Below, piece by piece: positions 1-13,214 of a stretch of DNA of 13,214 nucleotides. The stretch comes from a virus. Lineage: Duplodnaviria; Heunggongvirae; Uroviricota; Caudoviricetes. The stretch lies in the IMG/VR virus record IMGVR_UViG_3300029064_000011, one strand, 5' to 3'. Each line of letters starts with the position of its first letter. The first letter of the stretch is position 1. Position numbers and translations under genes: made by a program. A model generated the notes under the pieces. It did not search any database. It had not been told where the DNA came from and worked only from the letters and a program-made list of their open reading frames with translations.

Positions 1-1461
1 ATGAAAAAATTACTGCATCTTTTTTTCCCGCTCTCGCTGCGGGTACGTTTTCTGTTAGCAACGGCAGCAGTAGTATTGGTGCTTTCGCTTGCCTACGGAA
101 TGGTTGCGCTGATCGGTTATAGCGTCAGTTTCGATAAAACCACGTTTCGGCTGTTACGTGGCGAGAGCAATCTGTTCTATACCCTTGCGAAGTGGGAAAA
201 CAATAAGTTGCATGTCGAGTTACCCGAAAATATCGACAAGCAAAGCCCCACGATGACACTAATTTATGATGAGAACGGGCAGCTTTTATGGGCGCAACGT
301 GACGTGCCCTGGCTGATGAAGATGATCCAGCCTGACTGGCTGAAATCGAATGGTTTTCATGAAATTGAAGCGGATGTTAACGATACCAGCCTCTTGCTGA
401 GTGGAGATCATTCGATACAGCAACAGTTGCAGGAAGTGCGGGAAGATGATGACGACGCGGAGATGACCCACTCGGTGGCGGTAAACGTCTACCCGGCAAC
501 ATCGCGGATGCCAAAGTTAACCATTGTGGTGGTGGATACCATTCCGGTGGAGCTAAAAAGTTCCTATATGGTCTGGAGCTGGTTTATCTATGTGCTCTCA
601 GCCAATCTGCTGTTAGTGATCCCGCTGCTGTGGGTCGCCGCCTGGTGGAGTTTACGCCCCATCGAAGCCCTGGCAAAAGAAGTCCGCGAACTGGAAGAAC
701 ATAACCGTGAATTGCTCAATCCAGCCACAACGCGAGAACTGACCAGTCTGGTACGAAACCTGAACCGACTGTTAAAAAGTGAACGCGAACGTTACGACAA
801 ATATCGTACGACGCTCACCGACCTGACCCATAGTCTGAAAACGCCACTGGCGGTGCTGCAAAGTACGCTGCGTTCTCTGCGTAGTGAGAAGATGAGCGTC
901 AGTGATGCTGAGCCGGTAATGCTGGAGCAAATCAGCCGCATTTCACAGCAAATTGGCTACTACCTGCATCGTGCCAGTATGCGCGGCGGGACATTGCTTA
1001 GCCGCGAGCTGCATCCGGTCGCCCCACTGTTGGACAATCTCACCTCGGCGCTGAACAAAGTGTATCAACGCAAAGGGGTCAATATCTCTCTCGATATCTC
1101 GCCAGAAATCAGCTTTGTTGGTGAGCAGAATGATTTTGTCGAAGTGATGGGCAACGTGCTGGATAACGCCTGTAAATATTGCCTCGAGTTTGTCGAAATT
1201 TCTGCAAGGCAAACCGACGAGCATCTCTATATTGTGGTCGAGGATGATGGCCCCGGTATTCCATTAAGCAAGCGAGAGGTCATTTTCGACCGTGGTCAAC
1301 GGGTTGATACTTTACGCCCTGGGCAAGGTGTGGGGCTGGCGGTAGCCCGCGAAATCACCGAGCAATATGAGGGTAAAATCGTCGCCGGAGAGAGCATGCT
1401 GGGCGGTGCGCGGATGGAAGTGATTTTTGGTCGCCAGCATTCTGCGCCGAAAGATGAATAA
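1..1461 (+). CDS. phoQ: Sensor histidine kinase PhoQ of the PhoP/PhoQ two-component system, complete 486 aa
   Basis: Full-length ORF with ATG start. Two hydrophobic segments flank a periplasmic domain containing an acidic patch (EDDDDAE), followed by a phospho-acceptor H-box ([10 protein letters not shown]) and ATPase motifs ([20 protein letters not shown]). Matches enterobacterial PhoQ as I remember it. Confidence 0.96.
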
Positions 1462-2062
1462 ATATGTCCTTTTATCACCACAGCAAGACAACCCATTGAT
1501 TTAATTAAACAACCCACACTGCAAAAAGTGCTAAAAACAGCAAATTGACTACACCATTAACTACACCGTTCGGTGCACTGTATGAAACAACGTGGAACAA
1601 ATAGACACAAGAAATATACAGGCGGGTAATCTTTCCAGGGGGAAGCGCACCAATTCATGAGGGGCGTTAATGTCGATATGGGGATCCCCATAACGGGGCT
1701 ACCGGATTTTTTTTCCGGTTAACTGTTAATCAGGCTGGTGGGTTTTACCTGTTCGGTAGGAGTTATGATTATCGTAATACCTTTCCCCCAGTGGGGTAAA
1801 AGCTCCAACCGTAACGATGTTCGTTGTGGTTGCCTTGATGGTCTGCGTGGTCATTATGACCATTCAGAATATGAAGGGTGACGCTTCCGACTTCCTCAAA
1901 TTGAGGTTTCCGAAAATATCAGCGGGTTAGCGATTAATCTGACCATTAATTAAACTACGAAAATTTCGTAGTTTGTGAATATATTCCGGCCTTCTGATTA
2001 ACAGTCCTCAGATGTGAGGGATGTAGCCAGCGCAATTTTGCGTTATCGGGAATATCAGCAAG

Positions 2063-2344
2063 TTACCGCCGCAGCCGTTCCGGCTTCTTCCAGTGGTACG
2101 TTATTTTTTCTTTCTCCCGATACAGTTCAACGCGGCGATTGTAGGCCAGCATTTCAAGAACGCGGTTCCGTATGTTGCGCATATCAACGCCATTAAGTTC
2201 TATACCATCACGGCGCATCACTTCCGCTACAACACGCACATAATTTTCAGCGGTCACGCTGTCCGGCTGTGTGGCCTGTTCGTCATGCTGCTGGCTGATT
2301 CCGGCGACGCGGCGGATTAATCCCAGTAGTTCGGCTTCTGTCAT
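2063..2344 (-). CDS. Hypothetical protein, 93 aa, last island gene next to the left junction
   Basis: ORF with GGGGG Shine-Dalgarno 5 nt upstream of ATG at 2344. No family recognised. The overlapping + strand ORFs 2014..2196 and 2093..2320 are treated as antisense artefacts. Confidence 0.5.
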   Translation of the reverse strand: MTEAELLGLIRRVAGISQQHDEQATQPDSVTAENYVRVVAEVMRRDGIELNGVDMRNIRNRVLEMLAYNRRVELYREKEKITYHWKKPERLRR

Positions 2345-2374
2345 TGTGCCCCCATCGCTCTGATAGTCTGGTGT

Positions 2375-2575
2375 CGTCGGGTCCTTCCTGGAATTATGGC
2401 CCGTTACGGGGCGGCGACCTCGCGGTTTTTATCTGTTTATGAGAATTTTCCGGCAAAAGTCAGATCCGATCTTCTTCTCTGTAACAGACTGTTTAACAAT
2501 GAAAATATTAAAAAAAGAAAGGATCTGACACGAGGCATTTTAGCCAGAAAATGCCATTATCAGATCCTTTCTCAT
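2375..2575 (+). other. Lambda-type cos site, copy A (cosQ-like, cosN, full cosB-like region), + strand orientation
   Basis: 2399-2453 reads cccgttacggggcggcgacctcgcggtttttatctgtttatgagaattttccgg, closely matching the lambda cos junction as I remember it. Cohesive-end 12-mer GGGCGGCGACCT at 2408-2419. Upstream cgggtccttcctgg resembles lambda cosQ. Downstream has ttcttcttc, aaaagaaagga and nested inverted repeats (AAAGGATCTGA 2516-2526 / TCAGATCCTTT 2561-2571 around GGCATTTT-agccag-AAAATGCC 2534-2555) that parallel the lambda cosB region. Confidence 0.8.
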
Positions 2576-2599
2576 TTTTGTTCAATAATTGCGCGTCTG

Positions 2600-3142
2600 T
2601 TACTCGCCTTTCTTCTGTAGCAACTTTTCCGGTACGTTTCCGGTTGTTTCTTTCAAGTAATCAGCCAGTATCTGTGGGAGGTTGTCGGCAACTCTGGCAC
2701 TGGCATTACAGGCTTTAACCACTTCCCTTTTAAGCCTGTCCAGCATGGCGGGGGTAATCTGTGGGAAGCTCCTTTGCATAGTAAGCGGGAGGCTGTCCAT
2801 GATTGATGAAATCTGACTCGCCAGCTTTGAAAGCGCGTACAGGCAAAACTCAGTATCAATCACGTCACCGCGATCGCGATCGTTTTTAAGTTCCTGCGCC
2901 TCTGCCTGTGCTGTCAGTAATCTGATCCTGACTCGTAAAAGTTCATCATCGTCAATCTCGCCTTTGTCGTTTATAAGCTGGCTAATTGCATTGTTAACCC
3001 TATTTTCTATCACGCTGGCAACATCATAAAACGCCTCACGGCCTTTACGCTCAACGGGAGTTACTCCCCACTTGTCGAACGCTGTCGCACTTACACGGCA
3101 GCTTTTCGCCATGTTTTTTTTGTTCATCAGATGAGATTTCAT
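2600..3142 (-). CDS. terS: Terminase small subunit, lambda Nu1-like, 180 aa
   Basis: Same length class as Nu1 (181 aa). Central and C-terminal segments (LTAQAEAQELKNDRD..., FCLYALSKLASQISSIMDSLPLTMQRSFP, LKREVVKACN) align with the Nu1 segments LTRAQADAQELKNARD, FCTFVLSRIAGEIASILDGLPLSVQRRFP, LKRDIIKAMN from memory. The N-terminal HTH region is more divergent. ATG at 3140-3142. Confidence 0.88.
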   Translation of the reverse strand: MKSHLMNKKNMAKSCRVSATAFDKWGVTPVERKGREAFYDVASVIENRVNNAISQLINDKGEIDDDELLRVRIRLLTAQAEAQELKNDRDRGDVIDTEFCLYALSKLASQISSIMDSLPLTMQRSFPQITPAMLDRLKREVVKACNASARVADNLPQILADYLKETTGNVPEKLLQKKGE

Positions 3143-3143
3143 T

Positions 3144-3181
3144 AATACACCAACTTAATTACTGCTTCAGGTTGGTGTATT
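3144..3181. promoter_or_regulatory. Inverted repeat AATACACCAAC(N16)GTTGGTGTATT directly upstream of the terS start
   Basis: Perfect 11-bp arms at 3144-3154 and 3171-3181. In the minus-strand mRNA the proximal arm covers the SD-like GGTG just before the ATG. Could be a protein binding site or a translational hairpin. Confidence 0.4.
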
Positions 3182-3253
3182 GCTTGCATCTTTCCCTTTT
3201 CATTCATAAAGATAGATCAAACAACAAAACCACCACCACCACCCTGAAAAGGC

Positions 3254-3317
3254 TCATAAATAGCGAAAATCCGCGAGGTCGCCGCCCCGTAACGGGTCCA
3301 TATGCCGGAAAGGACCC
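3254..3317 (-). other. Lambda-type cos site, copy B (cosQ-like plus cosN, short divergent cosB), minus orientation, directly upstream of terS
   Basis: Minus strand reads tacgggtcctttccggcatatggacccgttacggggcggcgacctcgcggattttcgctatttatga. The ACGGGTCCTTTCCGG and GGGCGGCGACCTCGCGG blocks match lambda cosQ/cosN as I remember them. The 12-mer occupies 3276-3287 on the + strand as its reverse complement. Sequence diverges from lambda cosB after tatttatga. About 140 nt separate cosN from the terS ATG. Confidence 0.8.
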
Positions 3318-3319
3318 GT

Positions 3320-3343
3320 AAAAAAAGCCGGATTTCTCCGGCC
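3320..3343 (-). terminator. Rho-independent terminator after the 137-aa gene
   Basis: Minus strand GCCGGA-gaaa-TCCGGC hairpin (3327-3342) followed by a 7-U run (3320-3326). Confidence 0.55.
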
Positions 3344-3348
3344 TTGTC

Positions 3349-3762
3349 TCAGATGGTTTTCAGTATGCGCTCGATGTCGCCATCATCGCCCGGGTTTCTG
3401 CCGTCGTATGCCATGCCAGCTGAAACGGCTTGCGGGCTGTGCATGTCCATAAAGTTTTCAAAGGCTGCGGTAAGCTCCGGCGCAACCTTCTGGCGTTCCT
3501 GCTCTATGGTCATGCTAAGGATGCTTTTAGCCGTACCAACATCGATACAAGGCACGTTTGCCATTGCACGTAACAGCGGCTGATAGTCGTTATGCTCATG
3601 AAGCGCCATAATCGCATCAGCGCGCGGCTTGTCCTGCTCTTCCAGTTTGTTGAGTTGATATACGGCCTCGTAGGTTGATAAACCTCTGTCAGCCATTGCC
3701 CGCGCTTCGGCTTTAAATTTACTCGCCAGCGGTAGCGTCATGATGCTTTCATTCGTTGCCAT
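3349..3762 (-). CDS. Hypothetical head-module protein, 137 aa
   Basis: ORF with AGGGGGAA SD 3-4 nt upstream of ATG at 3762. Sits between the decoration-protein gene and cos copy B. No family recognised. Confidence 0.6.
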   Translation of the reverse strand: MATNESIMTLPLASKFKAEARAMADRGLSTYEAVYQLNKLEEQDKPRADAIMALHEHNDYQPLLRAMANVPCIDVGTAKSILSMTIEQERQKVAPELTAAFENFMDMHSPQAVSAGMAYDGRNPGDDGDIERILKTI

Positions 3763-3774
3763 CGTTCCCCCTGC

Positions 3775-4110
3775 TTATCGGGCCAGCGGCTGAACGGATA
3801 CGCCAGAACCCGCAAAGGCGGCGCATTTTTTCGCATCGGTGTCGACGCTCTCGGGCCAGTTCACGGCGGCGATATTAAAGATCCCCGTCTTGTAGCACTG
3901 TGCTGATTTCTGCTTTGACGTGTCCACGGGGTACGAAGTCAGATAAACAGCCTTTCCGGACGCCTGACCATCCCACGGCTTAAACTCGCCATTGTCCGCC
4001 AGCATCAGCGGGGTAAATTCCTGAATGACGCCAGCATCAGCGGCAAAATGTACCAGCGTCGTGGATACCTGCTGACTGCCTGCAAATAACTCAATGTATG
4101 GAGTGTTCAT
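3775..4110 (-). CDS. Head decoration protein, lambda gpD-like, 111 aa
   Basis: Motifs TPLMLAD, WDG, YKTGIF, NWPE and KKCAAFAGSG align with lambda gpD (TPLMLD, WDG, YKSGTF, WPE, KKRTAFAG) from memory. Similar length to gpD (110 aa). GGGGGA SD 5 nt upstream of the ATG. Confidence 0.8.
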   Translation of the reverse strand: MNTPYIELFAGSQQVSTTLVHFAADAGVIQEFTPLMLADNGEFKPWDGQASGKAVYLTSYPVDTSKQKSAQCYKTGIFNIAAVNWPESVDTDAKKCAAFAGSGVSVQPLAR

Positions 4111-4121
4111 AGAATCCCCCG

Positions 4122-5177
4122 TTAACCAATTTTGACGGTAACAAATTTGCGAATGTCTGCCGGCACCGGCTGCGGTGCGCTGTGCGTCTGCACGTACTCA
4201 ATCGCCGGATCGCCGTCCTCAATCCAGTTTTTCGGGTAGTACATGTTTTGCGTTGCGCCCGTTCTTACCGCTTCCTGATCCATAATCGCACCATAAGCAA
4301 CCAGCCCTTTATTGTTGGTGTTGCCCAAGACCAGCAAATCAGGCTCAAGGAAATGTTTTTCGGTGCCGTCGCTGTCGGCGTATTTGCCGGAATAGACGAT
4401 AAGGGCAATATCGCCCAGATAGCCTTTAAAGCTCACCACTTCGCCCAGGTTTTTACAGGCCAGTTCTGCGGCGGATTCTGAACCACGGGAAAGATCGTAC
4501 AGTTCGCGGAATTTTTTAAAGCTGCGTAACGTGCGCCATACCTCAGCGCCCATAATCATGACGTTTGCGGGGCAATTGCCCTGATCCGCATAAAGCTCGA
4601 TATCATAGATTGGATCGTGGGTTTCTTTGTCCTGCTCGGACCATTTACGGCCTTTGGCCTGCTCTATGATGTTGTTTTCCGGCATCTTCCAGTCGATTTC
4701 ATAGCGTTCTATGCCTTCGCCCTCAATGATGTTTTTTCCGGTCGTTACCGCATTTACCGCCAGCCATTCAACACGCGCTTTAATAGCGTTTACCTGGCGG
4801 CGCATGTTGCCAGTAATCAGGCGCATACGGCGATAGGTTGGGTCGTTAAGCTGTGCCGGATCTTCTCCAGCCATGCGCATGATGGTTTTTGTTGGATCGA
4901 TTTCGTGCTTTGGCTTCATGTAGCCAGGTTTAATCGTGCTGGTTTCGTACCCTTTATCGCGCTGTACCTGGCTACCAACCATAGGCGAGCAAAACGCTGA
5001 CATAGTGACTTCTTCGGTGTCCAGGTTATCCAGCATGATGTTTTGGGTGTTGAATGTCGCTACTTTCGGGAAAAACAGCGTGGTAAACAGCGGACTAAAT
5101 TTAAATTCCGCAATATCCCCGCGATTCAGGTACGCAAAAAGCTGGTGAGTGTTAAGTGCCGTTGCTTTGCCTGCCAT
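4122..5177 (-). CDS. Major capsid protein, lambda gpE-like, 351 aa
   Basis: Collinear similarity to lambda gpE over the full length as I remember it: FKFSPLF vs FKFDPLF, KPGYMKPKHEIDP vs TPGYVKPKHEVNP, DPTYRRMRLI vs DPAYRRRRII, WRTLRSFK vs WALFRSFK, SFKGYLGDIALIVYSGKY vs SYKGMYGDVAIVVYSGQY, YPKNWIEDGDPA vs YPKNWVTTGDPA. GGGGGTGA SD. Start overlaps the stop of the upstream 68-aa gene (TAATG). Confidence 0.92.
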   Translation of the reverse strand: MAGKATALNTHQLFAYLNRGDIAEFKFSPLFTTLFFPKVATFNTQNIMLDNLDTEEVTMSAFCSPMVGSQVQRDKGYETSTIKPGYMKPKHEIDPTKTIMRMAGEDPAQLNDPTYRRMRLITGNMRRQVNAIKARVEWLAVNAVTTGKNIIEGEGIERYEIDWKMPENNIIEQAKGRKWSEQDKETHDPIYDIELYADQGNCPANVMIMGAEVWRTLRSFKKFRELYDLSRGSESAAELACKNLGEVVSFKGYLGDIALIVYSGKYADSDGTEKHFLEPDLLVLGNTNNKGLVAYGAIMDQEAVRTGATQNMYYPKNWIEDGDPAIEYVQTHSAPQPVPADIRKFVTVKIG

Positions 5178-5383
5178 TATTCACCCCCATAATTTTTATG
5201 CATCCCAAGCGCCGCAAGTAAATAAGAGCGTACAAGTGAACCTATCGACGGCTCCGGCGTCATCAGCGGATCCAGTCCAGCCGCCACGCCAGCCTCATAG
5301 TTTTTTTTGTGGCGCTGCTTGAGCACCTCCACGATTTCGGGGCTTATGTACACCGAAACACCGCCTTTTTTCTCTTCAGCCAT
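5177..5383 (-). CDS. Hypothetical small protein, 68 aa, translationally coupled to the capsid gene
   Basis: ORF ending in TAA that shares one base with the capsid ATG. GAGGAA upstream of its ATG. First gene after the putative capsid-operon promoter. Function unknown. Confidence 0.5.
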   Translation of the reverse strand: MAEEKKGGVSVYISPEIVEVLKQRHKKNYEAGVAAGLDPLMTPEPSIGSLVRSYLLAALGMHKNYGGE

Positions 5384-5418
5384 AGTAAGAAATTCCTCTT
5401 CGACTTAAAAAATCATAA

Positions 5419-5798: not shown

Positions 5799-6221
5799 TT
5801 AAAACGGTATGTTATCCCCGTACGGATCATCATTCCCCGCCTGTTGTTTTGCCCTGTTCAGCGCGTCAGTAGCCTGGCCCTGTTGACCTTTTTTGCCGCC
5901 CAGTCGCGCCGTTCGCGCACTGATTACACTGTCTGCGATAACCTGCCAGCCCTGCCGCGTTTCTCCGTTCTGCCCAGTCCACTGGCTGATCTGCATGTTA
6001 CCCGCCACGCTCAGGAGTTCACCCTTGCGGTGCCTTTCCAGTGCTTCGGCCTGTCTGCCAAATGCCAGGACGGATAACCACATCGTCGCCGTTCCGTCAT
6101 CTGCCTGGCTGCACGGAAGGGGGACCGCCATACGTGCCAGCGTCATTGGTGTGCCCTTGCTGGTCTGTTTTACCTGCGGGTCGTCCACCAGCCGCCCGTA
6201 AGCTGCTATCTGTGCTGTCAT
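5799..6221 (-). CDS. Single-stranded DNA-binding protein (SSB-like), 140 aa
   Basis: Short OB-fold-like N-terminal region, Gly/Gln-rich linker, and the acidic C-terminal tail ending DDPYGDNIPF, typical of bacterial and phage SSBs (DDDIPF). ATG overlaps the stop of the upstream gene (ATGA). Confidence 0.75.
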   Translation of the reverse strand: MTAQIAAYGRLVDDPQVKQTSKGTPMTLARMAVPLPCSQADDGTATMWLSVLAFGRQAEALERHRKGELLSVAGNMQISQWTGQNGETRQGWQVIADSVISARTARLGGKKGQQGQATDALNRAKQQAGNDDPYGDNIPF

Positions 6222-6543: not shown

Positions 6544-6772
6544 TTGTCTACCTTATCTACCTTAGTGGCCCTCATACCAGTAATGGCGCGGCTTTCAGCG
6601 GGGTAGAGTGCTTTTATCCACTATCTACCCCGTGTCTACCTCCCTGTCTGATTCAGGTAAAATCAGGTAGAGAGGGTAGATAGTGGGTAGACAGTAAAAA
6701 AAGGTTATCTACCTAACTTAATGCACTGAATTAAATGTATTTTTCTTTACTCAGGTAGACAGGGTAGACAGC
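6544..6772. repeat. Iteron array, putative replication origin
   Basis: At least 11 copies of GGTAGA(C/T)AG or its complement in both orientations (for example 6545-6552, 6554-6561, 6622-6629, 6632-6640, 6666-6672, 6674-6681, 6685-6693, 6705-6712, 6754-6762, 6764-6772), with an AT-rich stretch at 6693-6750. Lies immediately 3' of the primase-helicase gene. Confidence 0.7.
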
Positions 6773-6784
6773 AATTACAAAAAA

Positions 6785-8539
6785 TTATAAAAACGCGTCG
6801 CACTCGTCTGTTGTTATTGCGTTAGTCTGCGTTACTCCCTTAACTTTCCGCGTAATATATTCATGTCCGTAAACTTTCGCGGCTGGCTTCATAGCCTTGC
6901 CAAAGTCATTTACGTTTAGCGGTTTGCTCCTGCCTGCGTACGCCATAAACGCCAGATAGACGCGGTAAAGGCTGTTTCTGGTCGTGTACTTCACTGAATC
7001 GCCACCGCCGCCCATCATCAGGCCGCGTGCTTCCTCCAGAAAATTCAGGAACTGGCAAAACTCAATAACCGGATCCGTCTGTTGCTTTATTGCCAGAGCT
7101 TCATCACCGTCACGCTGTTCCAGTAGTAAAGCCCGTGCCTTCTCAGGGTCGGTAAAGTTCGCCAGCAATCGGCGGATAATGACAGGGATTTCAGCCGCGA
7201 TCTTTTCCGGTAGCTCCCTGTCTTTTTCGGCCTCACTGACGATATTGTCGAAACGGAAAATCACGCGACGACGTGCCACACCTCCGGCCCGTTCGGTGAA
7301 TATCATCGGGTTATTGTTGGTCGCCAGCACCACCGCCCTGATTACCGCCGTGAAACGCTTTTCGTATTTCGGGTTAATTTCCACGGGGTCACCGCCCGTG
7401 ATTTTCTTGATGCCCGTTCCTTCGCCTGTATATTTCGGCTGGTCAGCCAGGACGATAAGACGACTCCCGACAACCTGCGCACGTCCACCAGCATCATCAA
7501 GCGATGTCATTTCAGCGCTTACCGTGTTCTGTTTCCCTGCCAGAAGGCTAGCTATGTGTGTGAATGTACTTTTACCGCTCCCGCCGTCTCCGGTGGCCTC
7601 AATAAACATCTGCCAGTCGTACCGGTTCGCCATAATCATGTACAGCGCGGCACATATACGCATCATCTTGCGCGGGTCTTTTCCGGCTGCGTGCTCAAGC
7701 CATTTATGAAAGTTTGGCGCGTTATCGCGGATGTTCTCCCCTGGTGCTGGTGGCGTGTACTCAATGCCGTTGTGCGTGGTGATCCAGTTCTCCGGCGTGT
7801 GCGGGGAAAATTCCCCCGTTTTCAGGTCAAGCGCACCATTGGCGAACGGCAACAAATCGCCGGACGGCTCGCCCATTGGTTCGGCAATAACTTTTAACGC
7901 TTCCACGGCGTTATTGATTACGCGCTTGCTGAAAGTGGCCCTGTGCTCTGAATAGATCGCCACCATTTCGCGGCTAAGTTCCATTGTGCTGACCGGACAC
8001 CATACCCCGCCGCGCCATACGTGAACGATTTCACTTTCAGGATGTACGCAAACGCCATCAAAGCGATCGGCAAGCAGCTGCGCGCGCTCACTGTCCGCCA
8101 TCTGCGAAAGTTGCGCCTTTTGCTTTACCGGAAGCTCAATGACCAGACCATCAGAAAGATTCTGGCGCTCACGGGCCAGATATTCGCGCCAGTTCTCCAC
8201 CTTCTGACCGTGCATACCATCAGGGTAAAAATTTGCATCCTGTACGCCTGCCGCCGCCAGCTTCTGACCAATCGCCTTTATCATTACTGGCGCAAGATAT
8301 CCGGCCCTGAATATGCGCACGGATTTTCTGCCTTCCGGCACAATTTGCAGCTTATCCAGTTCGGATAACTGCTGCTCCCCAAGCCACACAGGAGTCTCAT
8401 TATCTCCGGCCATACGCGCGTCATGTTCCTGCCATTGTTTTGCGTGTGACCAGGCATCACTACCCGCAAAAATAATGACTTCTGTTTCTTTGTGTTTTAT
8501 GCCGCGTGACTGCTGTTTTACGTTCGGTGCCAGTTTCAT
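6785..8539 (-). CDS. Primase-helicase replication initiator (P4-family phage/plasmid primase C-terminal domain with D5-like NTPase), 584 aa
   Basis: Walker A TGDGGSGKST and Walker B-like RLIVLADQ in the C-terminal half. Domain order and size are typical of satellite pri-rep proteins. Origin iterons directly downstream. Start overlaps the upstream 99-aa ORF. Confidence 0.88.
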   Translation of the reverse strand: MKLAPNVKQQSRGIKHKETEVIIFAGSDAWSHAKQWQEHDARMAGDNETPVWLGEQQLSELDKLQIVPEGRKSVRIFRAGYLAPVMIKAIGQKLAAAGVQDANFYPDGMHGQKVENWREYLARERQNLSDGLVIELPVKQKAQLSQMADSERAQLLADRFDGVCVHPESEIVHVWRGGVWCPVSTMELSREMVAIYSEHRATFSKRVINNAVEALKVIAEPMGEPSGDLLPFANGALDLKTGEFSPHTPENWITTHNGIEYTPPAPGENIRDNAPNFHKWLEHAAGKDPRKMMRICAALYMIMANRYDWQMFIEATGDGGSGKSTFTHIASLLAGKQNTVSAEMTSLDDAGGRAQVVGSRLIVLADQPKYTGEGTGIKKITGGDPVEINPKYEKRFTAVIRAVVLATNNNPMIFTERAGGVARRRVIFRFDNIVSEAEKDRELPEKIAAEIPVIIRRLLANFTDPEKARALLLEQRDGDEALAIKQQTDPVIEFCQFLNFLEEARGLMMGGGGDSVKYTTRNSLYRVYLAFMAYAGRSKPLNVNDFGKAMKPAAKVYGHEYITRKVKGVTQTNAITTDECDAFL

Positions 8540-8835
8540 TTTTTACCCCTGAATCCGTTAATCATGGTTTTCGGCTTCTGGATGTTTGCCCGTGCCCTGG
8601 CGTTGCTGGTGGACACGTTATGCGGCGCGGTCTGTACCAGAGAAAAATCACGCCGGAACTGATAAACAGGCATCACGCAATCATATTCGTAACCTTCACG
8701 GCGGTAGGTTACGCGCCGTTCTTCCACGCCCTTAATCATTACCGTGCCGCCGTACTGGTCGCGGTAAATATCGCCGCGCGTAAATTTAGGGTGAGTGTTG
8801 CCACTGGCAGTTAAGCCAGAATATTTAAGTTTCAT
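8536..8835 (-). CDS. Hypothetical protein, 99 aa
   Basis: ORF with GGAGAA SD. Stop overlaps the primase start. Confidence 0.5.
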   Translation of the reverse strand: MKLKYSGLTASGNTHPKFTRGDIYRDQYGGTVMIKGVEERRVTYRREGYEYDCVMPVYQFRRDFSLVQTAPHNVSTSNARARANIQKPKTMINGFRGKK

Positions 8836-9074: not shown

Positions 9075-9300
9075 GGCTTACATCCTCAGGAAATTTTCTT
9101 CTATAACGCGCCTCTGCCACATATTCCGCATAATCGGCGGCGATATTCAGTACATCAAGCCCCGTTGATTTATATTCTCTCGTGGAAAGTAAGAAAAAAG
9201 CCGCTCTAATAAGTTCTGGCATTGACGAAAGCGCATCAGCCGCATCATCAGGAACGCCGGAAAATTCCTGTTTCAGGGAATTAAAACGATCATCACGCAT
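9067..9300 (-). CDS. Hypothetical protein, 77 aa
   Basis: ORF with AGGGGGG SD. 3' end overlaps the next gene by 8 nt. Confidence 0.5.
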   Translation of the reverse strand: MRDDRFNSLKQEFSGVPDDAADALSSMPELIRAAFFLLSTREYKSTGLDVLNIAADYAEYVAEARYRRKFPEDVSHA

Positions 9301-9658
9301 GTTTACCCCCCTGAATGACCTGATAACCGCAACTGGTCAGCAACTCGATAAATTCCGGCAGTGTGCCGAAACAGCAATCATCACGCAGCCGTTCACAGGA
9401 TACCTCGACGCCGTTTTCGTAGTGACTCACCATACATCCGGTAAAATGCAGATCATCATCGTGATGGCTCGTTGACGGCTTAATCAGTCGCGCACGTTCC
9501 GCCAGTTCCAGCAATGCTTCAACGCTTCCGGCAATTGCACCATCCGGCAGGTGATAATTACGCACTATGCGCCCGTTCTCCACATTGACCAGCAACTGCC
9601 CGGTAAATTTCTCATCAAACTGAATGCTGTTAAGGTCAGAAATTGACAGATTATGCAT
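9293..9658 (-). CDS. Hypothetical protein, about 121 aa (second ATG of the ORF chosen)
   Basis: ORF track gives 9293..9676, but the ATG at 9656-9658 is preceded by AGGAGG at optimal spacing (start MHNLSIS...). Confidence 0.5.
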   Translation of the reverse strand: MHNLSISDLNSIQFDEKFTGQLLVNVENGRIVRNYHLPDGAIAGSVEALLELAERARLIKPSTSHHDDDLHFTGCMVSHYENGVEVSCERLRDDCCFGTLPEFIELLTSCGYQVIQGGKHA

Positions 9659-9875
9659 GGTGCACCTCCTGCACATCAGCCATGATAATTTTTCCGGCCT
9701 TATCCAGTGCCTGATCGGCTTTTAGCTGCACAAATGCTAAATAATGGAAGATGCATTCTGATTCTCTGGCTGCGTGTTTATGCGCCCTGTCAGCAATAAC
9801 AGAAATATCAATAAGCGCGTGCATCAGCGTAGTGAGCGCGGCGGCGGCTGCGTCCGGTGTGGTTTTATTGCACAT
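9651..9875 (-). CDS. Hypothetical protein, about 74 aa (internal start of ORF 9651..9929)
   Basis: GGAGGGG SD precedes the ATG at 9873-9875 (start MCNKTTPD...). The longer upstream extension lacks an SD. Confidence 0.4.
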   Translation of the reverse strand: MCNKTTPDAAAAALTTLMHALIDISVIADRAHKHAARESECIFHYLAFVQLKADQALDKAGKIIMADVQEVHHA

Positions 9876-10095
9876 GTACCCCTCCGCATTTTTTTTCGTT
9901 AGAAATAAGCGTTCTTCTTTCCTGTTCATCGCTCAGGAATACGCAGACCTCACCGCTAAGGCGTTTAAGTAAGCCGATGATTGCCCCTGATTCGCTGTCG
10001 GTCATCATGCCAGGGTAATCCTCTGCCAGTGCGCAAATAACTTCGATTTGGTGGGCGCGTTCTGCTGCCTGTTGTAGTGTGATTTCCTGGCTCAT
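9865..10095 (-). CDS. Hypothetical protein, 76 aa
   Basis: ORF with GGGGGTAGG SD. Its ATG overlaps the stop of the upstream 66-codon reading frame (ATGA). Confidence 0.45.
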   Translation of the reverse strand: MSQEITLQQAAERAHQIEVICALAEDYPGMMTDSESGAIIGLLKRLSGEVCVFLSDEQERRTLISNEKKCGGVHVQ

Positions 10096-10292
10096 AAGCC
10101 TACCCCCTGACGAATACGGGCAGCAAATACCATCACGCAGCCAGCCGGAGATTGCTGGCGTGCTTCCTGTTCGCTGGTGGCCTCAATGGTAATCACGCGC
10201 GGTTGTGCCGTGCTCAGGGCGATAAAACGCCAGATGTATTTATTCAGGTTGTGCGAGTCCCGCCCTTGCGGGTGTGTGGTATGATTTCTCAT
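10092..10292 (-). CDS. Hypothetical protein, 66 aa, candidate first gene of the leftward operon
   Basis: ATG at 10290-10292 preceded by GAGGTAG. Stop overlaps the start of the 76-aa gene. This is the C-terminal in-frame part of the 428-codon ORF 10092..11378. Starts about 95 bp from the operator cluster. Confidence 0.4.
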   Translation of the reverse strand: MRNHTTHPQGRDSHNLNKYIWRFIALSTAQPRVITIEATSEQEARQQSPAGCVMVFAARIRQGVGL

Positions 10293-11378
10293 AGCTACCT
10301 CGATACTTTCGCTATCGTTGGTGGTTAGAAGCCCGGTTAGTGTTAGCGCACTGCCGGGTTTCGTCGTTTCTGCACCTTGCGCCAACAAGGTGTTGAACAC
10401 CAATTTAAACCCAGGTGTTAAACACGTCAAGTGTTGAACACTTATTTTTTTTCCTGCATACTGCATTTGTTTTTTATGAGGGGTACACCACATGGCGACA
10501 AAAGCGGTAAACGCAAAATCACAAACCGTTGCGGCAAGGGTTCCGCATGAAGTTATGAACAATGTTGAGGCGGTAAAAATGCCTGGCGAAAGTACGGGGC
10601 AATTTGTTACTGCGGCATTAAAACGAGAAGTTGAATATCGCCAGCGGCGCAAGGCCAAAGAACCAGAGTAATCACCATCAGCGCCGTGGTGTAAGGTATT
10701 ACGGCGCATTGCTATGCAGGACAACACAATGACCGATAAAGAATTGACCAAAACATTATCACCGGCACGGAAAAGACGGCGCAGAAAGATAGAGCATGAA
10801 TCAGAAAGATTCGCGCCATGTGCTTTTGCCCTTGAGCAATTCCTTAAAGAGTACAGGGAAAAGCGCTCATTGCAGGTATGGCAACGAACTGAACCAGACT
10901 GATTGCATTGCCCACCAGCCGCAAATGTGGCATTGTTGGCAATGCTCATGCGTTGGGGATAACGTGTAGCTTGTGTCGAGGGGCCACCGTAGCGGGTGGC
11001 CTTTGTTTTGCCCGTTATTCGGCAATTGTGGCGCTTCTCCACATGGTTGATATAATCCCACTGCTCAGATTCATTTTTTGCGCAGTAGGTTAATTGTTCA
11101 CAAAGGCGCTCCGGCAACGGGGCGCTTTTTGTTTTTATTAGTTTGTAGAAACCTGACTCAGAGATAATGCTCATATTCTGATTGCCGTCAGGGGTGTAAG
11201 TTAAATTTACTCCCTTTTTATCATCAAACATCTGCAACGCTCTGGCGTTAACAATATTGGTTTCACTCCCGCCAGTAAGGCCGGAAATAACCGGAATAAT
11301 TTCGGCAAAATTTTGCAGATTCTGTTTTTCAGGACGAACGAAGCCCCGCCCTTGTTCGGGAGAATATCCAGTATTCAT
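10092..11378 (-). CDS. 428-codon ORF, probably not one real gene; N-terminal roughly 115 codons resemble a BRO-N/antirepressor-like domain, the middle overlaps the + strand RHH cassette
   Basis: N-terminal part contains ISESGFYKLIKTKSAP, reminiscent of the BRO-N motif I-E-G-LY-LI-S-P. The rest has skewed Cys/Ser/Thr-rich composition and runs antisense through operators, the RHH gene and two + strand terminators. Weak SD at the 11378 ATG. Confidence 0.25.
   Translation of the reverse strand: MNTGYSPEQGRGFVRPEKQNLQNFAEIIPVISGLTGGSETNIVNARALQMFDDKKGVNLTYTPDGNQNMSIISESGFYKLIKTKSAPLPERLCEQLTYCAKNESEQWDYINHVEKRHNCRITGKTKATRYGGPSTQATRYPQRMSIANNATFAAGGQCNQSGSVRCHTCNERFSLYSLRNCSRAKAHGANLSDSCSIFLRRLFRAGDNVLVNSLSVIVLSCIAMRRNTLHHGADGDYSGSLALRRWRYSTSRFNAAVTNCPVLSPGIFTASTLFITSCGTLAATVCDFAFTAFVAMWCTPHKKQMQYAGKKISVQHLTCLTPGFKLVFNTLLAQGAETTKPGSALTLTGLLTTNDSESIEVAMRNHTTHPQGRDSHNLNKYIWRFIALSTAQPRVITIEATSEQEARQQSPAGCVMVFAARIRQGVGL
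10388..10442. promoter_or_regulatory. Three palindromic operator-like sites in a divergent promoter region
   Basis: GGTGTT-G-AACACC (10388-10400), GTGTT-A-AACAC (10414-10424) and AAGTGTT-G-AACACTT (10428-10442). The third overlaps a candidate rightward promoter: -35 TTGAAC (10433-10438), 17-nt spacer, -10 CATACT (10456-10461). Confidence 0.6.
10491..10670 (+). CDS. Ribbon-helix-helix (Arc/CopG-like) DNA-binding protein, 59 aa
   Basis: Not in the ORF track because it is under 60 aa; translated by hand as MATKAVNAKSQTVAARVPHEVMNNVEAVKMPGESTGQFVTAALKREVEYRQRRKAKEPE. The N-terminal strand-like RVPHEV followed by two helices is the classic RHH pattern. GAGGGG SD. The operator cluster lies immediately upstream. 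Confidence 0.6.
10714..10902 (+). CDS. Small, very basic hypothetical protein (58-62 aa), second gene of the + strand cassette
   Basis: ORF track entry 10714..10902. An AGGA SD favours the second ATG at 10729 (MTDKELTK...). Contains an RKRRRRK tract. Followed by an intrinsic terminator. Confidence 0.4.
   Translation: MQDNTMTDKELTKTLSPARKRRRRKIEHESERFAPCAFALEQFLKEYREKRSLQVWQRTEPD
10982..11009 (+). terminator. Rho-independent terminator of the + strand RHH cassette
   Basis: GGCCACC-gtagcg-GGTGGCC hairpin (10982-11001) followed by TTTGTTTT. Confidence 0.55.
11106..11136 (+). terminator. Second + strand rho-independent terminator
   Basis: GCGCTCCG-GCAA-CGGGGCGC hairpin (8 bp including one G-U pair, GNRA-like tetraloop) followed by TTTTTGTTTTT. 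Confidence 0.55.
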
Positions 11379-11430: not shown

Positions 11431-11619
11431 TTAGTGAACTGCCTCGCAGCTGTCCTTCCATGCCAGAACTTCGGATAAAGACCAGCCAACGGAACGACCG
11501 CCCAGCTTACGCCGTGATGGGAATTGTCCGGCTTTTTCCAGGCGGTACCGACATGAGCGGCTCAGGCCTGTAAGTTGCTGACATTCTTTTTCACGTATAA
11601 AGCGATCTGTGCTTAACAC
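11431..11619 (-). CDS. alpA: AlpA-family transcriptional regulator (excisionase-like HTH), 62 aa, GTG start
   Basis: Pattern LTGLSRSCRYRLEKAGQFPSRRKLGGRSVGWSLSEVLAW fits the Phage_AlpA family (TG-SR-T-Y, FP-P-LG-RSVGW, E-W). AAGGGGGAA SD 4-5 nt upstream of the GTG. Positioned next to the integrase as in PICIs and P4-like islands. Confidence 0.8.
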   Translation of the reverse strand: MLSTDRFIREKECQQLTGLSRSCRYRLEKAGQFPSRRKLGGRSVGWSLSEVLAWKDSCEAVH

Positions 11620-11984: not shown

Positions 11985-13214
11985 TTATATTTCTCTGGCT
12001 ATTGGCAATGTGGTTACGTTTTCATGTGTTCCCGCCAGTATCCCTAACCGCTCCGTCCACATATCCAGCGCGTCACGTTTCGCATCCAGATAACGGGAAT
12101 GGTTATAGACTCGTTGCATCCCTGGCATCTGATGACCTGTAAGCTGCTCCACGACGTGAGGATCCACGCCTAAATCGTTCAGCATCGTTGTAAAGGTGCG
12201 CCGGATGTCATGCAGTGACCAGTGAGGGTGTTTTAGCCTCCTGTGCGCTAATCTGCCGTACTGCGACACGCTTGTTTCCTGTTTCACTTCCCCCAGCAAT
12301 AAGCCCGTGTGCCTGTTCTGCTCCACCAGCTGCGTGACGAACGGCAGTATTGCTTCCGGTATGGGCCGGAATATTGCCACCTTCGTTTTGCTGTGTTCTT
12401 TCGGCACGGTCCAGAGCATTTCGGTAAAATCCCACTCGCTGATCTCCGATAACCTCAGTTCTACCGTCCGGCATCCGAAAACAATCAGGAGGCGGATTAG
12501 TGCGACGTAGTAAGGGGAAAATATTTTTTTGTCCAGTGCCTGCAATAATTCGCCAAGTTCTTTGGTGCTTAAGACACGCTCGCTTATATCCGGTTTTTTC
12601 CCAACGTCCGCCACACTCATATCATCAAGAACGTTGCTGATTGCATAGCGCCGCCTCCGGCAGAACTTAAGCGCCTGTTTGCACGTCTGTAGCAAGAATC
12701 CGGCAGTAACAGGCGTTCGCTTTGCCACCTGGTCAAAACAGGCCAGCCAGTGCCGTAGCTCGCATTTATCCAGCGGCATAGCACCAATGTGCTGTATTAC
12801 GTGATTATTAAGGCGCTTTTTCAGGGCGGCATAATCCACGCGGTTTTCCTTTACGTAAGACTCAAGCCAGTAGGTAAGCGCATCGCCAACCGTTACGGGC
12901 TTTAACGCTTTCTGTACGGTGTAATTCATCTCATGACGTGGATTTTTCCCCTCAGCAAGCCAAGCGCGACACTGTGCCGCTTTTTCCCTGGCAGCTTTCA
13001 GACTCAGATCAGGATAATTTCCCAGCTTAATCCGTTCCGGTCGTGCTCCCCTTCCCGTTCCGGCCCTGTAGGTGAAATACCAGGTTAAAAGGCCGCTGGT
13101 TGAATGCCTGACGCTCAGGTTTCCACCGTCATTAAGAAAGGCTGTTTTTTGGGCGGGTGTGCCGTTGATTTTCCTCAGCTGTGTATCGCTCAGTTTGTTA
13201 AGTGCTCTGCTCAT
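11985..13214 (-). CDS. int: Tyrosine recombinase, P4-type integrase, 409 aa; start codon at the last window base
   Basis: N-terminal arm-binding domain pattern (LSDTQLRK, NDGGNLSV, WYFTYR, LGNYPDLSLKAAREK) typical of P4-like integrases. C-terminal catalytic motifs HDIRRTF and RVYNHSRY. The N-terminal pattern suggests the ATG at 13212-13214 is the true start. Confidence 0.93.
   Translation of the reverse strand: MSRALNKLSDTQLRKINGTPAQKTAFLNDGGNLSVRHSTSGLLTWYFTYRAGTGRGARPERIKLGNYPDLSLKAAREKAAQCRAWLAEGKNPRHEMNYTVQKALKPVTVGDALTYWLESYVKENRVDYAALKKRLNNHVIQHIGAMPLDKCELRHWLACFDQVAKRTPVTAGFLLQTCKQALKFCRRRRYAISNVLDDMSVADVGKKPDISERVLSTKELGELLQALDKKIFSPYYVALIRLLIVFGCRTVELRLSEISEWDFTEMLWTVPKEHSKTKVAIFRPIPEAILPFVTQLVEQNRHTGLLLGEVKQETSVSQYGRLAHRRLKHPHWSLHDIRRTFTTMLNDLGVDPHVVEQLTGHQMPGMQRVYNHSRYLDAKRDALDMWTERLGILAGTHENVTTLPIAREI

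What the first reader, a model, noticed from the sequence alone, without database searches (positions are those of the whole stretch)
2600..3185. Nu1-like TerS with a diverged N-terminal DNA-binding region and a conserved C-terminal region
The C-terminal two thirds align well with lambda Nu1, the part that contacts the large terminase. The N-terminal HTH segment differs (NKKNMAKSCRVSATAFDKWGVTPV versus NKKQLADIFGASIRTIQNWQEQGMPV from memory), and the cognate cosB (copy B) is also diverged. This is the pattern expected for a TerS that keeps helper TerL interaction but has changed DNA specificity. The perfect inverted repeat AATACACCAAC(N16)GTTGGTGTATT at the terS start may be its binding site or a translational control hairpin.
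Basis: partly seen in the sequence, partly recalled or inferred. Interest (0 to 1): 0.6.

Follow-up and report, generated by a model that had tools for sequence, protein, structure and literature searches.

The report
Satellite island's own small terminase
This is an intact small-terminase gene carried by a known type of E. coli phage-parasitic island; it probably steers a helper phage's DNA-cutting enzyme to the island's own packaging site, in place of the Rpp protein studied in the sister island EcCICFT073.

Summary
ORF 2600-3142 (minus strand, 180 aa) is a Nu1-family small terminase (TerS): Pfam PF07471 at 3e-23, and 36% identity to lambda Nu1. The perfect 11-bp inverted repeat lies at 3144-3154 and 3171-3181.

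The window is an EcCICFT073-family PICI at phoQ. It is 93-96% identical to EcCICFT073 except for a cassette bounded by two inverted cos sites. In that cassette terS and new cosB sequences replace rppA.

The protein is mosaic. [quoted passage not shown] It is the phage N15 / Pseudomonas F10 type (54-61% identity, helix AFDKWGV). The C-terminal part is closest to E. coli lambdoid TerS proteins (PhiR5_1, 55%).

The cosB in front of the gene carries the G/T-rich R3 element that accompanies this DNA-binding domain in N15, MD8, F10 and all island relatives. The repeat arm farther from the start codon is conserved across genera and resembles R3. The arm next to the start codon occurs only in E. coli, and the perfect repeat is one allele (354 of 766 genomes).

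dN/dS is 0.1-0.2. No large terminase is encoded.

The likely role is a satellite TerS that recruits helper TerL to the island's cos. This is a new member of a known kind, of moderate interest, and no experiment has tested it.

The parts
2600..3142 (-). terS: 180-aa Nu1-family small terminase subunit of the island (stop codon at 2600-2602)
   Evidence: ORF. Pfam PF07471 at 3e-23. 36% identity to lambda Nu1 and 44% to N15 gp1. RefSeq annotates it 'terminase small subunit' in near-identical islands. dN/dS is 0.10-0.21.
2972..3142 (-). [quoted passage not shown]
2768..2950 (-). Codons 65-125: long helices of the central (oligomerisation) region, the part most like lambda Nu1
   Evidence: 55% identity to lambda Nu1 over aa 73-125. 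Helices 65-91 and 97-125 in the model.
2603..2767 (-). Codons 126-180: C-terminal region corresponding to the TerL-binding end of lambda Nu1, plus a 14-aa extension
   Evidence: 32% identity and 73% similarity to lambda over aa 126-166. Searched with aa 102-180, the best phage matches are PhiR5_1 at 54.7% and the PhiR12 group at 51.5%. It is the most variable region in the family. dS between alleles is 1.0-1.4.
3144..3154 (.). Repeat arm next to the ATG (cos bp 134-144; GTTGGTGTATT on the coding strand). Candidate R1-like site; it overlaps the ribosome-binding region
   Evidence: Perfect inverted repeat. Other E. coli alleles read GTGGGGATATT here (8/11), and the arm is absent in Kosakonia and Enterobacter relatives, which have GAGG Shine-Dalgarno motifs instead. 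Identical sequence in 354 of 766 genomes.
3171..3181 (.). Repeat arm farther from the ATG (cos bp 107-117; AATACACCAAC on the coding strand). Candidate R2-like site, inverted relative to R3
   Evidence: Conserved block AATA(C/T)A(C/G)C(A/C)AC in all six aligned lineages. With its flank (TCAGGTTGGTG on the other strand) it matches the R3 region TCAGGGTGGTG at 10/11; 11 of 500 shuffles do as well. It resembles the R3 TCAGAGGTTGGTTGT of Pseudomonas prophages with the same domain type.
3219..3247 (-). cosB of copy B, R3-position element (cos bp 41-69): TCAGGGTGGTGGTGGTGGTTTTGTTGTTT
   Evidence: Core GGTGGTGGT(G/T)TTGTT(G/A)TT is nearly invariant in relatives whose TerS is only 56% identical. Same place and composition as N15 R3 GAGGTTGTTGTT at bp 48-59 (PMC4669245) and as GGAGGTTGGTTGTTGTT in MD8 and F10.
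3276..3287 (-). cosN of copy B: GGGCGGCGACCT, identical to the lambda cohesive end. cosQ-side homology continues to about 3318
   Evidence: Homology to phage cos sites covers the cosQ side, cosN and about 45 bp beyond the cut site.
3320..3343 (-). Terminator-like hairpin plus U run after the 137-aa gene, just upstream of copy B
   Evidence: RNA fold -17.4 kcal/mol, z -2.6. Also present in EcCICFT073. The consensus scan did not flag it.
2409..2578 (+). cos copy A, facing copy B. cosN at 2409-2420, then a complete lambda-style cosB: R3 2459-2476, IHF-like site 2498-2510, inverted R2 2512-2529, R1 2560-2578. No gene lies behind it (the terS stop codon arrives at bp 192)
   Evidence: (repeats I3 and I7). 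Matches lambdoid phage cos further than copy B does; best match is PhiR5_1 through about bp 115.
2378..3318 (.). cos-bounded cassette (cosB-A, terS, cosB-B) between inverted 76-nt arms. It replaces the rppA cassette of EcCICFT073 and is inverted in strain 2013C-4282
   Evidence: (window 2454-3245 has no counterpart in EcCICFT073; window 2378-3318 keeps its orientation in L009 while both flanks are reversed).

Best explanation
The gene encodes the island's own small terminase subunit.

Context, shown. The window holds an EcCICFT073-family phage-inducible chromosomal island (PICI) integrated at the phoQ stop codon. The island has no large terminase, portal or protease, so it must use a helper lambdoid phage for cutting and packaging.

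Mechanism, inferred.
1. After induction, TerS dimers bind the island-specific cosB of cos copy B through an N15-type winged helix-turn-helix.
2. The main target is the G/T-rich R3-position element at cos bp 41-69. The inverted R2-like arm at bp 107-117 probably helps, and in this allele so does an R1-like arm at bp 134-144. This would be a lambda/Monarch-style three-site cosB.
3. The central helices oligomerise, and the C-terminal region recruits the helper's TerL.
4. TerL nicks the lambda-identical cosN and packages island concatemers.

The N15 precedent predicts that lambda-type helper TerS will not use copy B, so packaging from copy B should depend on the island's TerS. Copy A, a complete lambda-style cos, probably offers a second entry point served by a helper's own TerS.

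The perfect hairpin in this allele may additionally lower terS translation or let TerS regulate itself.

For: Satellite context: the window is collinear with EcCICFT073 at 93-96% identity except for the cassette. The att core GGACATATTT sits at 1460-1469, matching Table S1 of PMC6092414, which lists EcCIRM12579 at ycfD-phoQ. No TerL, portal or protease domains were found in the island ORFs.

Functional constraint: dN/dS 0.10-0.21 in all three segments. Present in 763-766 of 5426 complete E. coli genomes. Also present in Enterobacter, Citrobacter and Kosakonia islands with the same capsid-decoration-HTH-cos-terS module.

Specificity switch: the N-terminal 60 aa match only N15, Pseudomonas, Enterobacter and Alteromonas phages, while the C-terminal 79 aa (aa 102-180) match E. 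coli lambdoid TerS best. Within the family the DNA-binding domain is nearly invariant.

Protein and site travel together: the G/T-rich R3 element is found with this domain type in N15, in MD8, F10 and two Pseudomonas-type prophages, and in every island relative. It is absent from lambda, phage 4, PhiR5_1 and both EcCICFT073 cos sites.

Experimental precedent: a chimeric TerS with an N15 N-terminus and a lambda C-terminus works with lambda TerL on N15 cosB, and lambda and 21 terminases do not package N15 DNA (PMC4669245).
Against: No experiment on this protein was found in the searchable literature.

The TerL-contacting tail is only 32% identical to lambda Nu1 and at best 55% to any phage in the collection, so the actual helper is unknown.

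The GTTGTT run of the island R3 lies about 9 bp further from cosN than in N15. Spacing is critical in lambda (PMC9026076).

Similarity between R3 and the repeat arms is statistically weak: 11-26 of 500 shuffles match it in E. coli alleles, and it is not significant in the Enterobacter lineages.

No IHF-like site lies between R3 and R2 of copy B at one mismatch or fewer.

A terminator-like hairpin precedes copy B and no sigma-70-like promoter was found inside cosB, so how terS is transcribed is unclear.

The weak Shine-Dalgarno sequence, buried in a stable hairpin in this allele, could mean low expression.
Confidence: 0.7

Rival explanations
1. The protein acts mainly like Rpp. It forms mixed complexes with the helper's TerS, through the conserved central region or the DNA-binding-domain dimer interface. 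This blocks helper packaging and borrows the helper TerS to bring in TerL, so it is not a self-sufficient TerS.
Against: No sequence similarity to RppA (BLASTP E 3.4), and no sequence-level hit to RppC chains in the PDB. It is full length and keeps the Nu1-like C-terminal region that Rpp proteins lack (PMC9026076), so it does not need a helper TerS to reach TerL. The two roles are not mutually exclusive.
Confidence: 0.15
2. The perfect inverted repeat is mainly an RNA or regulatory element. It would be a hairpin that hides the ribosome-binding site, or an operator for another regulator such as the HTH protein encoded upstream in related islands. It would not be a pair of TerS packaging sites.
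For: In this allele the hairpin is stable (MFE -18.2 kcal/mol for 81 nt, z -2.5; 4 of 200 shuffles fold as well). It ends 1 nt before the AUG and covers the only Shine-Dalgarno-like GGTG. All three differences from the other E. coli allele increase pairing and remove its GGGGA motif. The allele is common, in 354 genomes.
Against: The hairpin is not significant in the other alleles (z -1.8 and +0.8) and is absent in the Enterobacter and Kosakonia relatives (z 0.0). The arm farther from the ATG is nevertheless conserved in all of them, so that arm has a function that does not need the hairpin. Its sequence resembles the R3 of phages with the same TerS domain. Its position and orientation mirror lambda R2 and R1 (PMC9026076).
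Confidence: 0.25
3. The gene is a decaying leftover of a lambdoid prophage and has no present function.
For: No TerL gene follows it. The island was once annotated as a cryptic prophage: CP-933C / OI-51 in O157 (PMC3378721, seen).
Against: It is an intact ORF in hundreds of genomes, with dN/dS 0.1-0.2 and an almost invariant DNA-binding domain across genera. It always sits next to a conserved cos and cosB. The sister island EcCICFT073 is experimentally mobile (PMC6092414).
Confidence: 0.04

Closest known systems
Phage lambda gpNu1 (TerS, Pfam PF07471)
   Same: Same family and length (180 against 181 aa). Same three-part layout: winged-HTH domain, helical core, C-terminal TerL-binding end. Sits directly after a cosQ-cosN-cosB site with an identical 12-nt cohesive end. 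An inverted pair of sites lies just before the start codon, as with lambda R2 and R1.
   Different: Only 34% identity in the DNA-binding domain, with two deletions. Different recognition helix and a cosB unrelated beyond about bp 45. No TerL gene downstream. Encoded by a satellite island.
Phage N15 gp1 and the N15/Monarch packaging-specificity group (Feiss et al. 2015, PMC4669245)
   Same: Closest phage relative overall (44%) and in the DNA-binding domain (54%, shared AFDKWGV helix). A G/T-rich R3 at the same place. Like the 'Monarch' subgroup described in that paper, the island seems to have additional inverted and direct R-like sites.
   Different: The recognition helix differs at two positions (SATAFDKW against SVQAFDKW). 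R3 is preceded by (GGT)n, and the GTTGTT run is shifted by about 9 bp. cosN is lambda-type rather than N15-type. The C-terminal part is not lambda/N15-like but PhiR5_1/PhiR12-like. I could not obtain the Monarch sequence to compare.
Rpp proteins (RppA, RppB, RppC) of EcCICFT073-type PICIs (Fillol-Salom et al. 2019, PMC6739421)
   Same: Same island family, same slot between two inverted cos sites, similar winged-HTH fold, and the same presumed purpose of directing helper terminase to an island-specific cosB.
   Different: No detectable sequence similarity. Rpp is 144-153 aa and lacks the TerL-binding C-terminus, so it needs the helper TerS. This protein is a full TerS. Its cosB carries (GGT)n where EcCICFT073 cos1 has the reverse complement CACCACCACCAC.
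SaPI-encoded TerS of pac-type staphylococcal islands (as summarised in PMC6739421 and PMC6092414)
   Same: The logic is the same: the satellite brings its own small terminase and borrows the helper's large terminase.
   Different: Unrelated protein family and headful (pac) packaging rather than cos packaging. SaPIs add a separate inhibitor (Ppi) of the phage TerS; no such partner is evident here.
EcCIRM12579 (E. coli O55:H7) and O157 O-island 51 / CP-933C
   Same: Same island type at ycfD(roxA)-phoQ with the same att core. EcCIRM12579 is catalogued as a PICI in Table S1 of PMC6092414. Window 1400-5400, including terS, is 97% identical to it.
   Different: In the papers I could read these islands are only catalogued. 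Their terS and cosB were not analysed. The replication module differs: primase in the window, RepA-type helicase in O55:H7.

Membership tests
Nu1-family small terminase (Pfam PF07471) | Sequence match to the family profile above the curated threshold | tested here: met
   82.6 bits against a cut-off of 30, E 3.2e-23, residues 33-148. BLASTP to lambda Nu1 gives E 1e-33.
Nu1-family small terminase (Pfam PF07471) | [quoted passage not shown] | tested here: met
Nu1-family small terminase (Pfam PF07471) | Gene lies directly downstream of a cos site (cosQ-cosN-cosB) in the same orientation | tested here: met
   cosN GGGCGGCGACCT at 3276-3287 on the minus strand; ATG at cos bp 146.
Nu1-family small terminase (Pfam PF07471) | C-terminal region binds the large terminase subunit | not testable with these tools
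   Sequence similarity only: 32% identity and 73% similarity to lambda over aa 126-166, and up to 55% to PhiR5_1 TerS.
Nu1-family small terminase (Pfam PF07471) | Partner TerL gene immediately downstream, as in phages | tested here: not met
   No terminase large subunit domain anywhere in the island. The next feature downstream is the inverted cos copy A. This is the expected difference for a satellite and does not affect family membership of the protein.
N15/Monarch packaging-specificity class | N15-type recognition helix | tested here: met
   SATAFDKWGV against N15 SVQAFDKWGV; 54% identity over aa 1-50. The N-terminal query retrieves N15 but no lambda, 21 or phi80.
N15/Monarch packaging-specificity class | R3 of the GAGGTTGTTGTT type at cos bp 48-59 | tested here: inconclusive
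   A G/T-rich element lies at bp 41-69. It reads GGTGGTGGT at bp 51-59, and GTTGTT comes at bp 63-68, about 9 bp further out than in N15. Related, not identical. Actual cross-specificity is unknown.
Rpp (redirecting phage packaging) proteins | Sequence similarity to RppA, RppB or RppC | tested here: not met
   BLASTP against RppA gives E 3.4. phmmer against the PDB, which holds RppC chains, gave no hit at E 1 or better.
Rpp (redirecting phage packaging) proteins | Short protein (144-153 aa) lacking the TerL-binding C-terminus | tested here: not met
   180 aa, aligning with lambda Nu1 through residue 166 of the island protein, up to Nu1's last five residues. Lengths of Rpp proteins are from PMC6739421 and PMC9026076.
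Rpp (redirecting phage packaging) proteins | Binds the helper TerS and depends on it | not testable with these tools
   Needs two-hybrid or helper terS-deletion experiments.
EcCICFT073-family Gram-negative PICI (the host element) | int, alpA, pri-rep, no lysis or tail genes, specific att site not used by prophages, cos site(s) | tested here: met
   Integrase, AlpA, D5-type primase, SSB, gpE-like and gpD-like genes. 93-96% identical to EcCICFT073 outside the cassette. att core at 1460-1469. Two cos sites, as in EcCICFT073.

The most novel reading that the evidence does not exclude
The segment between the two inverted cos sites may be a portable, invertible 'packaging-specificity cassette' (cosB-A, specificity gene, cosB-B). 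It would be exchanged and flipped between islands at the cos cores. This could happen by homologous recombination, or by terminase cutting both sites. Cutting both would release a fragment with two identical cohesive ends that can re-anneal in either orientation. On this reading the full-length TerS cassette is the commoner and possibly ancestral form, and the Rpp proteins would derive from such a TerS by loss of the TerL-binding end. In the collection the terS cassette is in 763 complete E. coli genomes and the rppA cassette in 53. Carrying an N15-type domain would also give the island an asymmetric advantage: helper TerS cannot use the island's cos, while the island's TerS can use helper TerL.
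Probability: 0.2. Interest if true: 0.7.

Novelty: new member of a known kind. Interest (0 to 1): 0.42.

Why it matters
Rpp is the only hijacking mechanism worked out so far for cos-type islands in Gram-negative bacteria. This window shows a sister island, identical in backbone, that carries a complete small terminase instead. In complete E. coli genomes this version is several-fold more frequent than the rppA cassette, and it is present in O157:H7, O55:H7 and O111:H8 strains. RppB and RppC variants were not counted.

If the inferred mechanism holds, three things follow:
- It gives a second, simpler route by which virulence-regulating islands such as OI-51, which carries the LEE regulator RgdR, are mobilised.
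- It provides a natural chimera for studying how TerS domains set cos specificity. Feiss and colleagues built such chimeras artificially, combining an N15-type DNA-binding domain with a lambdoid TerL-binding end.
- It offers a defined protein-site pair for engineering packaging of synthetic cos elements.

Tried and rejected
- Sequence search of the PDB with the whole protein found neither the lambda Nu1 domain nor RppC. The relation shows only at the fold level.
- The first AF2 run, with 16 close relatives, was unusable (pLDDT 51). Adding 53 N15-type homologues gave pLDDT 79.
- The genome-contig scan returned only 3 loci. Relatives were obtained instead through the look-up of encoding contigs and the E. 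coli collection.
- The IHF consensus search found no site in copy B cosB and only one, in copy A.
- The promoter and terminator scan found no promoter for terS and missed the evident terminator hairpin.
- A search for further copies of the repeat arm in the window gave chance-level numbers.
- The test of R3 against repeat-arm similarity was borderline in E. coli and not significant in the Enterobacter lineages. I therefore rest the site assignment on conservation and on co-occurrence with the domain type, not on that statistic.
- I checked whether the helper-embedded island in CFSAN029787 has a TerS tail matched to its host prophage's lambda-identical Nu1. The result was 41% against 32% for the window allele, which is too small a difference to interpret.
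- The helper-embedded PICI paper (PMC10111431) does not discuss terS-carrying islands.
- The small ORF annotated in front of terS in some genomes (L009, L010) is absent from the window and was dismissed as spurious.
Full report
**What is in the window.** Bases 1-1461 are phoQ. Its stop codon overlaps the 10-bp att core GGACATATTT at 1460-1469. Everything to the right is a phage-inducible chromosomal island (PICI) read on the minus strand. Its genes are:
- integrase, 11985-13214
- AlpA, 11431-11619
- DUF4222 protein and D5-type primase, 6785-8835
- SSB, 5799-6221
- a lambda gpE-like capsid protein, 4122-5177
- a gpD-like decoration protein, 3775-4110
- a 137-aa protein, 3349-3762
- the ORF in question, 2600-3142
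- a 93-aa ORF, 2063-2344

No large terminase, portal, protease, tail or lysis gene is present.

The island sits at the same locus as EcCICFT073 in strain CFT073. It is collinear with EcCICFT073 at 93-96% identity everywhere except window 2454-3245. Table S1 of Fillol-Salom et al. 2018 lists the near-identical O55:H7 island EcCIRM12579 at ycfD-phoQ with this att core. O157:H7, O55:H7 and O111:H8 genomes carry window 1400-5400 at 97% identity.

**The observation.** The 180-aa ORF is a Nu1-family small terminase. Pfam PF07471 scores 82.6 bits against a cut-off of 30. BLASTP to lambda Nu1 gives 36% identity, E 1e-33. The Nu1 sequence used was checked against the lambda record.

Identity to lambda is uneven: 34% with two gaps in residues 1-50, 55% in 73-125, and 32% (73% similar) in 126-166. 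A 14-residue tail has no lambda counterpart. The Pfam match starts only at residue 33. A sequence search of the PDB does not find the lambda Nu1 DNA-binding domain.

The perfect inverted repeat is at 3144-3154 and 3171-3181, one base from the ATG. The two facing cos copies are at 2378-2453 and 3243-3318.

The start codon is M1. It is invariant in relatives, whereas residue 6 is Leu in the more distant ones.

**It is a functional gene of a widespread family.** The gene with its cos occurs in 763-766 of 5426 complete E. coli genomes.

Proteins 55-58% identical occur in Enterobacter, Citrobacter and Kosakonia. There they lie in islands embedded in the capsid gene of lambda-like prophages, always in the order capsid, decoration, small HTH protein, cos, terS.

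Between E. coli alleles dN/dS is 0.10-0.21 in every segment.

Within the family the first 50 residues are almost invariant and the last 55 are the most variable. Synonymous divergence in that last part is 1.0-1.4, against 0.23-0.27 in the N-terminus. This points to recombinational swapping of the C-terminal module rather than relaxed constraint.

At sequence level the domain is not a lone divergence from Nu1. It is 54% identical to the N-terminus of phage N15 gp1, including the recognition helix (SATAFDKWGV against SVQAFDKWGV). Searched alone against 50,697 phage records, the N-terminal 60 residues hit 37 Pseudomonas phages (about 61%), the two N15 records, one Enterobacter phage and one Alteromonas phage. 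They hit no lambda, 21 or phi80.

The C-terminal 79 residues (aa 102-180) do the opposite. Their best matches are E. coli lambdoid phages PhiR5_1 (54.7%) and the PhiR12 group (51.5%), ahead of Pseudomonas phages (43.5%), N15 (40%) and lambda (38.5%).

[quoted passage not shown] Copy B is lambda-like through cosQ, cosN and about 45 bp. It then reads TCAGGGTGGTGGTGGTGGTTTTGTTGTTT at bp 41-69.

N15 has its single critical TerS site R3 at bp 48-59, GAGGTTGTTGTT (PMC4669245). Pseudomonas phages MD8 and F10, and two prophages with the same domain type but a different cohesive end, have GGAGGTTGGTTGTTGTT(T) at the corresponding place. In island relatives whose TerS is only 56% identical, the block GGTGGTGGT(G/T)TTGTT(G/A)TT is nearly invariant while the surrounding DNA has diverged.

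Lambda, CFT073 phage 4, PhiR5_1 and both EcCICFT073 cos sites lack this element. This co-occurrence of protein type and site type across unrelated replicons is the strongest computational evidence that the element is the TerS target.

One caveat concerns spacing. The GTTGTT run lies about 9 bp further from cosN than in N15, although GGTGGTGGT occupies exactly N15's bp 51-59.

**The inverted repeat.** A second conserved block in the same alignment is AATA(C/T)A(C/G)C(A/C)AC at bp 107-117, window 3171-3181. This is the repeat arm farther from the ATG.

Read on the other strand with its flank, it is TCAGGTTGGTGTATT. That matches the start of the R3 region (TCAGGGTGGTG) at 10 of 11 positions; 11 of 500 shuffles do as well. 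It also resembles the Pseudomonas-type R3 TCAGAGGTTGGTTGT. It is therefore an R-like site inverted relative to R3. This is the arrangement of lambda R3 and R2 and of the 'Monarch' N15 relatives (PMC9026076; PMC4669245).

The arm next to the ATG (bp 134-144) would be the R1 equivalent, but it exists only in E. coli. In other alleles it reads GTGGGGATATT (8/11 complementary, containing a GGGGA ribosome-binding motif). In Enterobacter and Kosakonia relatives it is replaced by plain GAGG motifs.

The perfect version is one allele, identical over 81 bp in 354 of 766 genomes, including O157:H7. As RNA it forms a stable hairpin in this allele only (z -2.5, against -1.8, +0.8 and 0.0 in the others).

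My reading has two parts. The conserved arm is a TerS site. The perfect repeat in this allele either completes an R2/R1 pair or adds translational damping, and these two options cannot be separated without experiments.

**Most likely mechanism.** The island needs a helper's TerL. Its own TerS binds copy B cosB through the N15-type domain, oligomerises through the central helices, and recruits helper TerL through the lambdoid-type C-terminus. TerL then cuts the lambda-identical cosN and packages island concatemers.

There is direct experimental precedent for such a chimera. Feiss et al. showed that a TerS with an N15 N-terminus and a lambda C-terminus works with lambda TerL on N15 cosB. They also showed that lambda and 21 terminases do not package N15 DNA (PMC4669245). 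This step is an inference for the island and has not been shown.

The main rival is an Rpp-like mode, in which the protein forms heteromers with the helper TerS. It cannot be excluded, and it may coexist with the TerS role. It is less economical, because this protein keeps the C-terminal region that Rpp lacks and shows no sequence similarity to RppA.

**Relation to what is known.** Island-encoded TerS proteins are known for pac-type SaPIs. Fillol-Salom et al. 2018 noted that some Gram-negative PICIs carry terS homologues. RefSeq already names this gene 'terminase small subunit'.

I found no paper that analyses this TerS, its N15-type domain or its cosB. The mechanistic work on this island family concerns Rpp (PMC6739421; PMC9026076). 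I therefore class it as a new member of a known kind, of moderate interest.

**Additional observations.**
- The unit that differs from EcCICFT073 is exactly the stretch between the two cos cores.
- Copy A is a complete lambda-style cos with R3, an IHF-like site, an inverted R2 and R1 at lambda spacing, but no gene behind it.
- In strain 2013C-4282 the whole cos-to-cos segment is inverted relative to its flanks. Junction searches suggest the inverted junction is found in at most about nine genomes, while the window arrangement is found in 591.
- The rppA cassette is found at 80% coverage or more in only 53 genomes.

These points suggest a modular, occasionally flipping packaging-specificity cassette. 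That is the most novel reading the data allow.

Noticed in passing
window 2378-3318; L009 (NZ_CP027579.1, strain 2013C-4282) 2780-3720: The whole segment between the two inverted cos cores (both cosB regions plus terS) is inverted in strain 2013C-4282 relative to phoQ and the capsid genes. The breakpoints lie inside the shared cos core. Cutting both inverted cos sites would release a fragment with two identical cohesive ends, so terminase itself, or plain recombination, could flip it. The inverted junction appears in at most about 9 complete genomes, and the window-type junction in 591.
   Followed up: partly
window 2409-2578 (+): cos copy A is a complete lambda-style cos with no gene behind it: R3 GTCAGATCCGATCTTCTT at 2459-2476, an IHF-like site at 2498-2510, inverted R2 at 2512-2529 and R1 at 2560-2578. 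Spacing is lambda-like, but the R consensus (TCAGATCC(G/T)(A/T)TCT) differs from lambda, phage 4 and PhiR5_1. It may be a decoy or entry site for a helper's own TerS. The helper is not identified. Islands at other loci (L010, L020, Enterobacter types) lack this second cos.
   Followed up: partly
window 2454-3245 versus L003 (EcCICFT073) 15600-16265: The window island equals EcCICFT073 (93-96% identity) except for this cos-bounded cassette, where terS replaces rppA. In complete E. coli genomes the terS cassette is found in 763 and the rppA cassette (80% coverage or more) in 53. RppB and RppC variants were not counted.
   Followed up: partly
window 3229-3243 (cos bp 45-59) versus L003 15611-15622: At the R3 position the window has (GGT)5, while EcCICFT073 cos1 has CACCACCACCAC, the reverse complement of the same trinucleotide repeat. 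The repeat lies a few bp further from cosN in EcCICFT073. No explanation.
   Followed up: no
window 2603-2767 (terS codons 126-180): Synonymous divergence between E. coli alleles is 4-5 times higher in the C-terminal third (dS 1.0-1.4) than in the N-terminal third (0.23-0.27), while dN/dS stays low. This suggests that C-terminal modules are swapped between alleles, possibly tracking different helper TerL types.
   Followed up: partly
L020 (NZ_CP011416.1 3684000-3712000); L012-L019: Relatives of this terS lie in islands inserted inside late genes of lambda-like prophages: the portal gene in E. coli CFSAN029787 and capsid gene E in Enterobacter and Citrobacter. These are helper-embedded PICIs. 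In CFSAN029787 the surrounding prophage's Nu1 differs from lambda Nu1 at a single residue, giving a ready-made helper-satellite pair to test.
   Followed up: partly
window 3320-3343 (-): A strong terminator-like hairpin with a U run lies between the 137-aa gene and cos copy B (RNA fold -17.4 kcal/mol, z -2.6). It is also present in EcCICFT073. It implies that terS needs antitermination or its own promoter. The consensus scan found no promoter.
   Followed up: partly
window 9293-11378: The region between the replication genes and alpA differs among related islands. It contains a 428-aa ORF (10092-11378, minus strand) with no Pfam match and an odd, low-complexity-looking translation. This is probably not a real gene but overlapping small accessory genes. 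RefSeq annotates Icd-like and YlcI/YnfO-like genes there in sister islands.
   Followed up: no
window 6615-6689: A 16-nt, 94% complementary inverted repeat (TATCCACTATCTACCC / GGGTAGATAGTGGGTA) lies just downstream of the primase gene. This is where Fillol-Salom et al. 2018 place the replication origin of Gram-negative PICIs.
   Followed up: no
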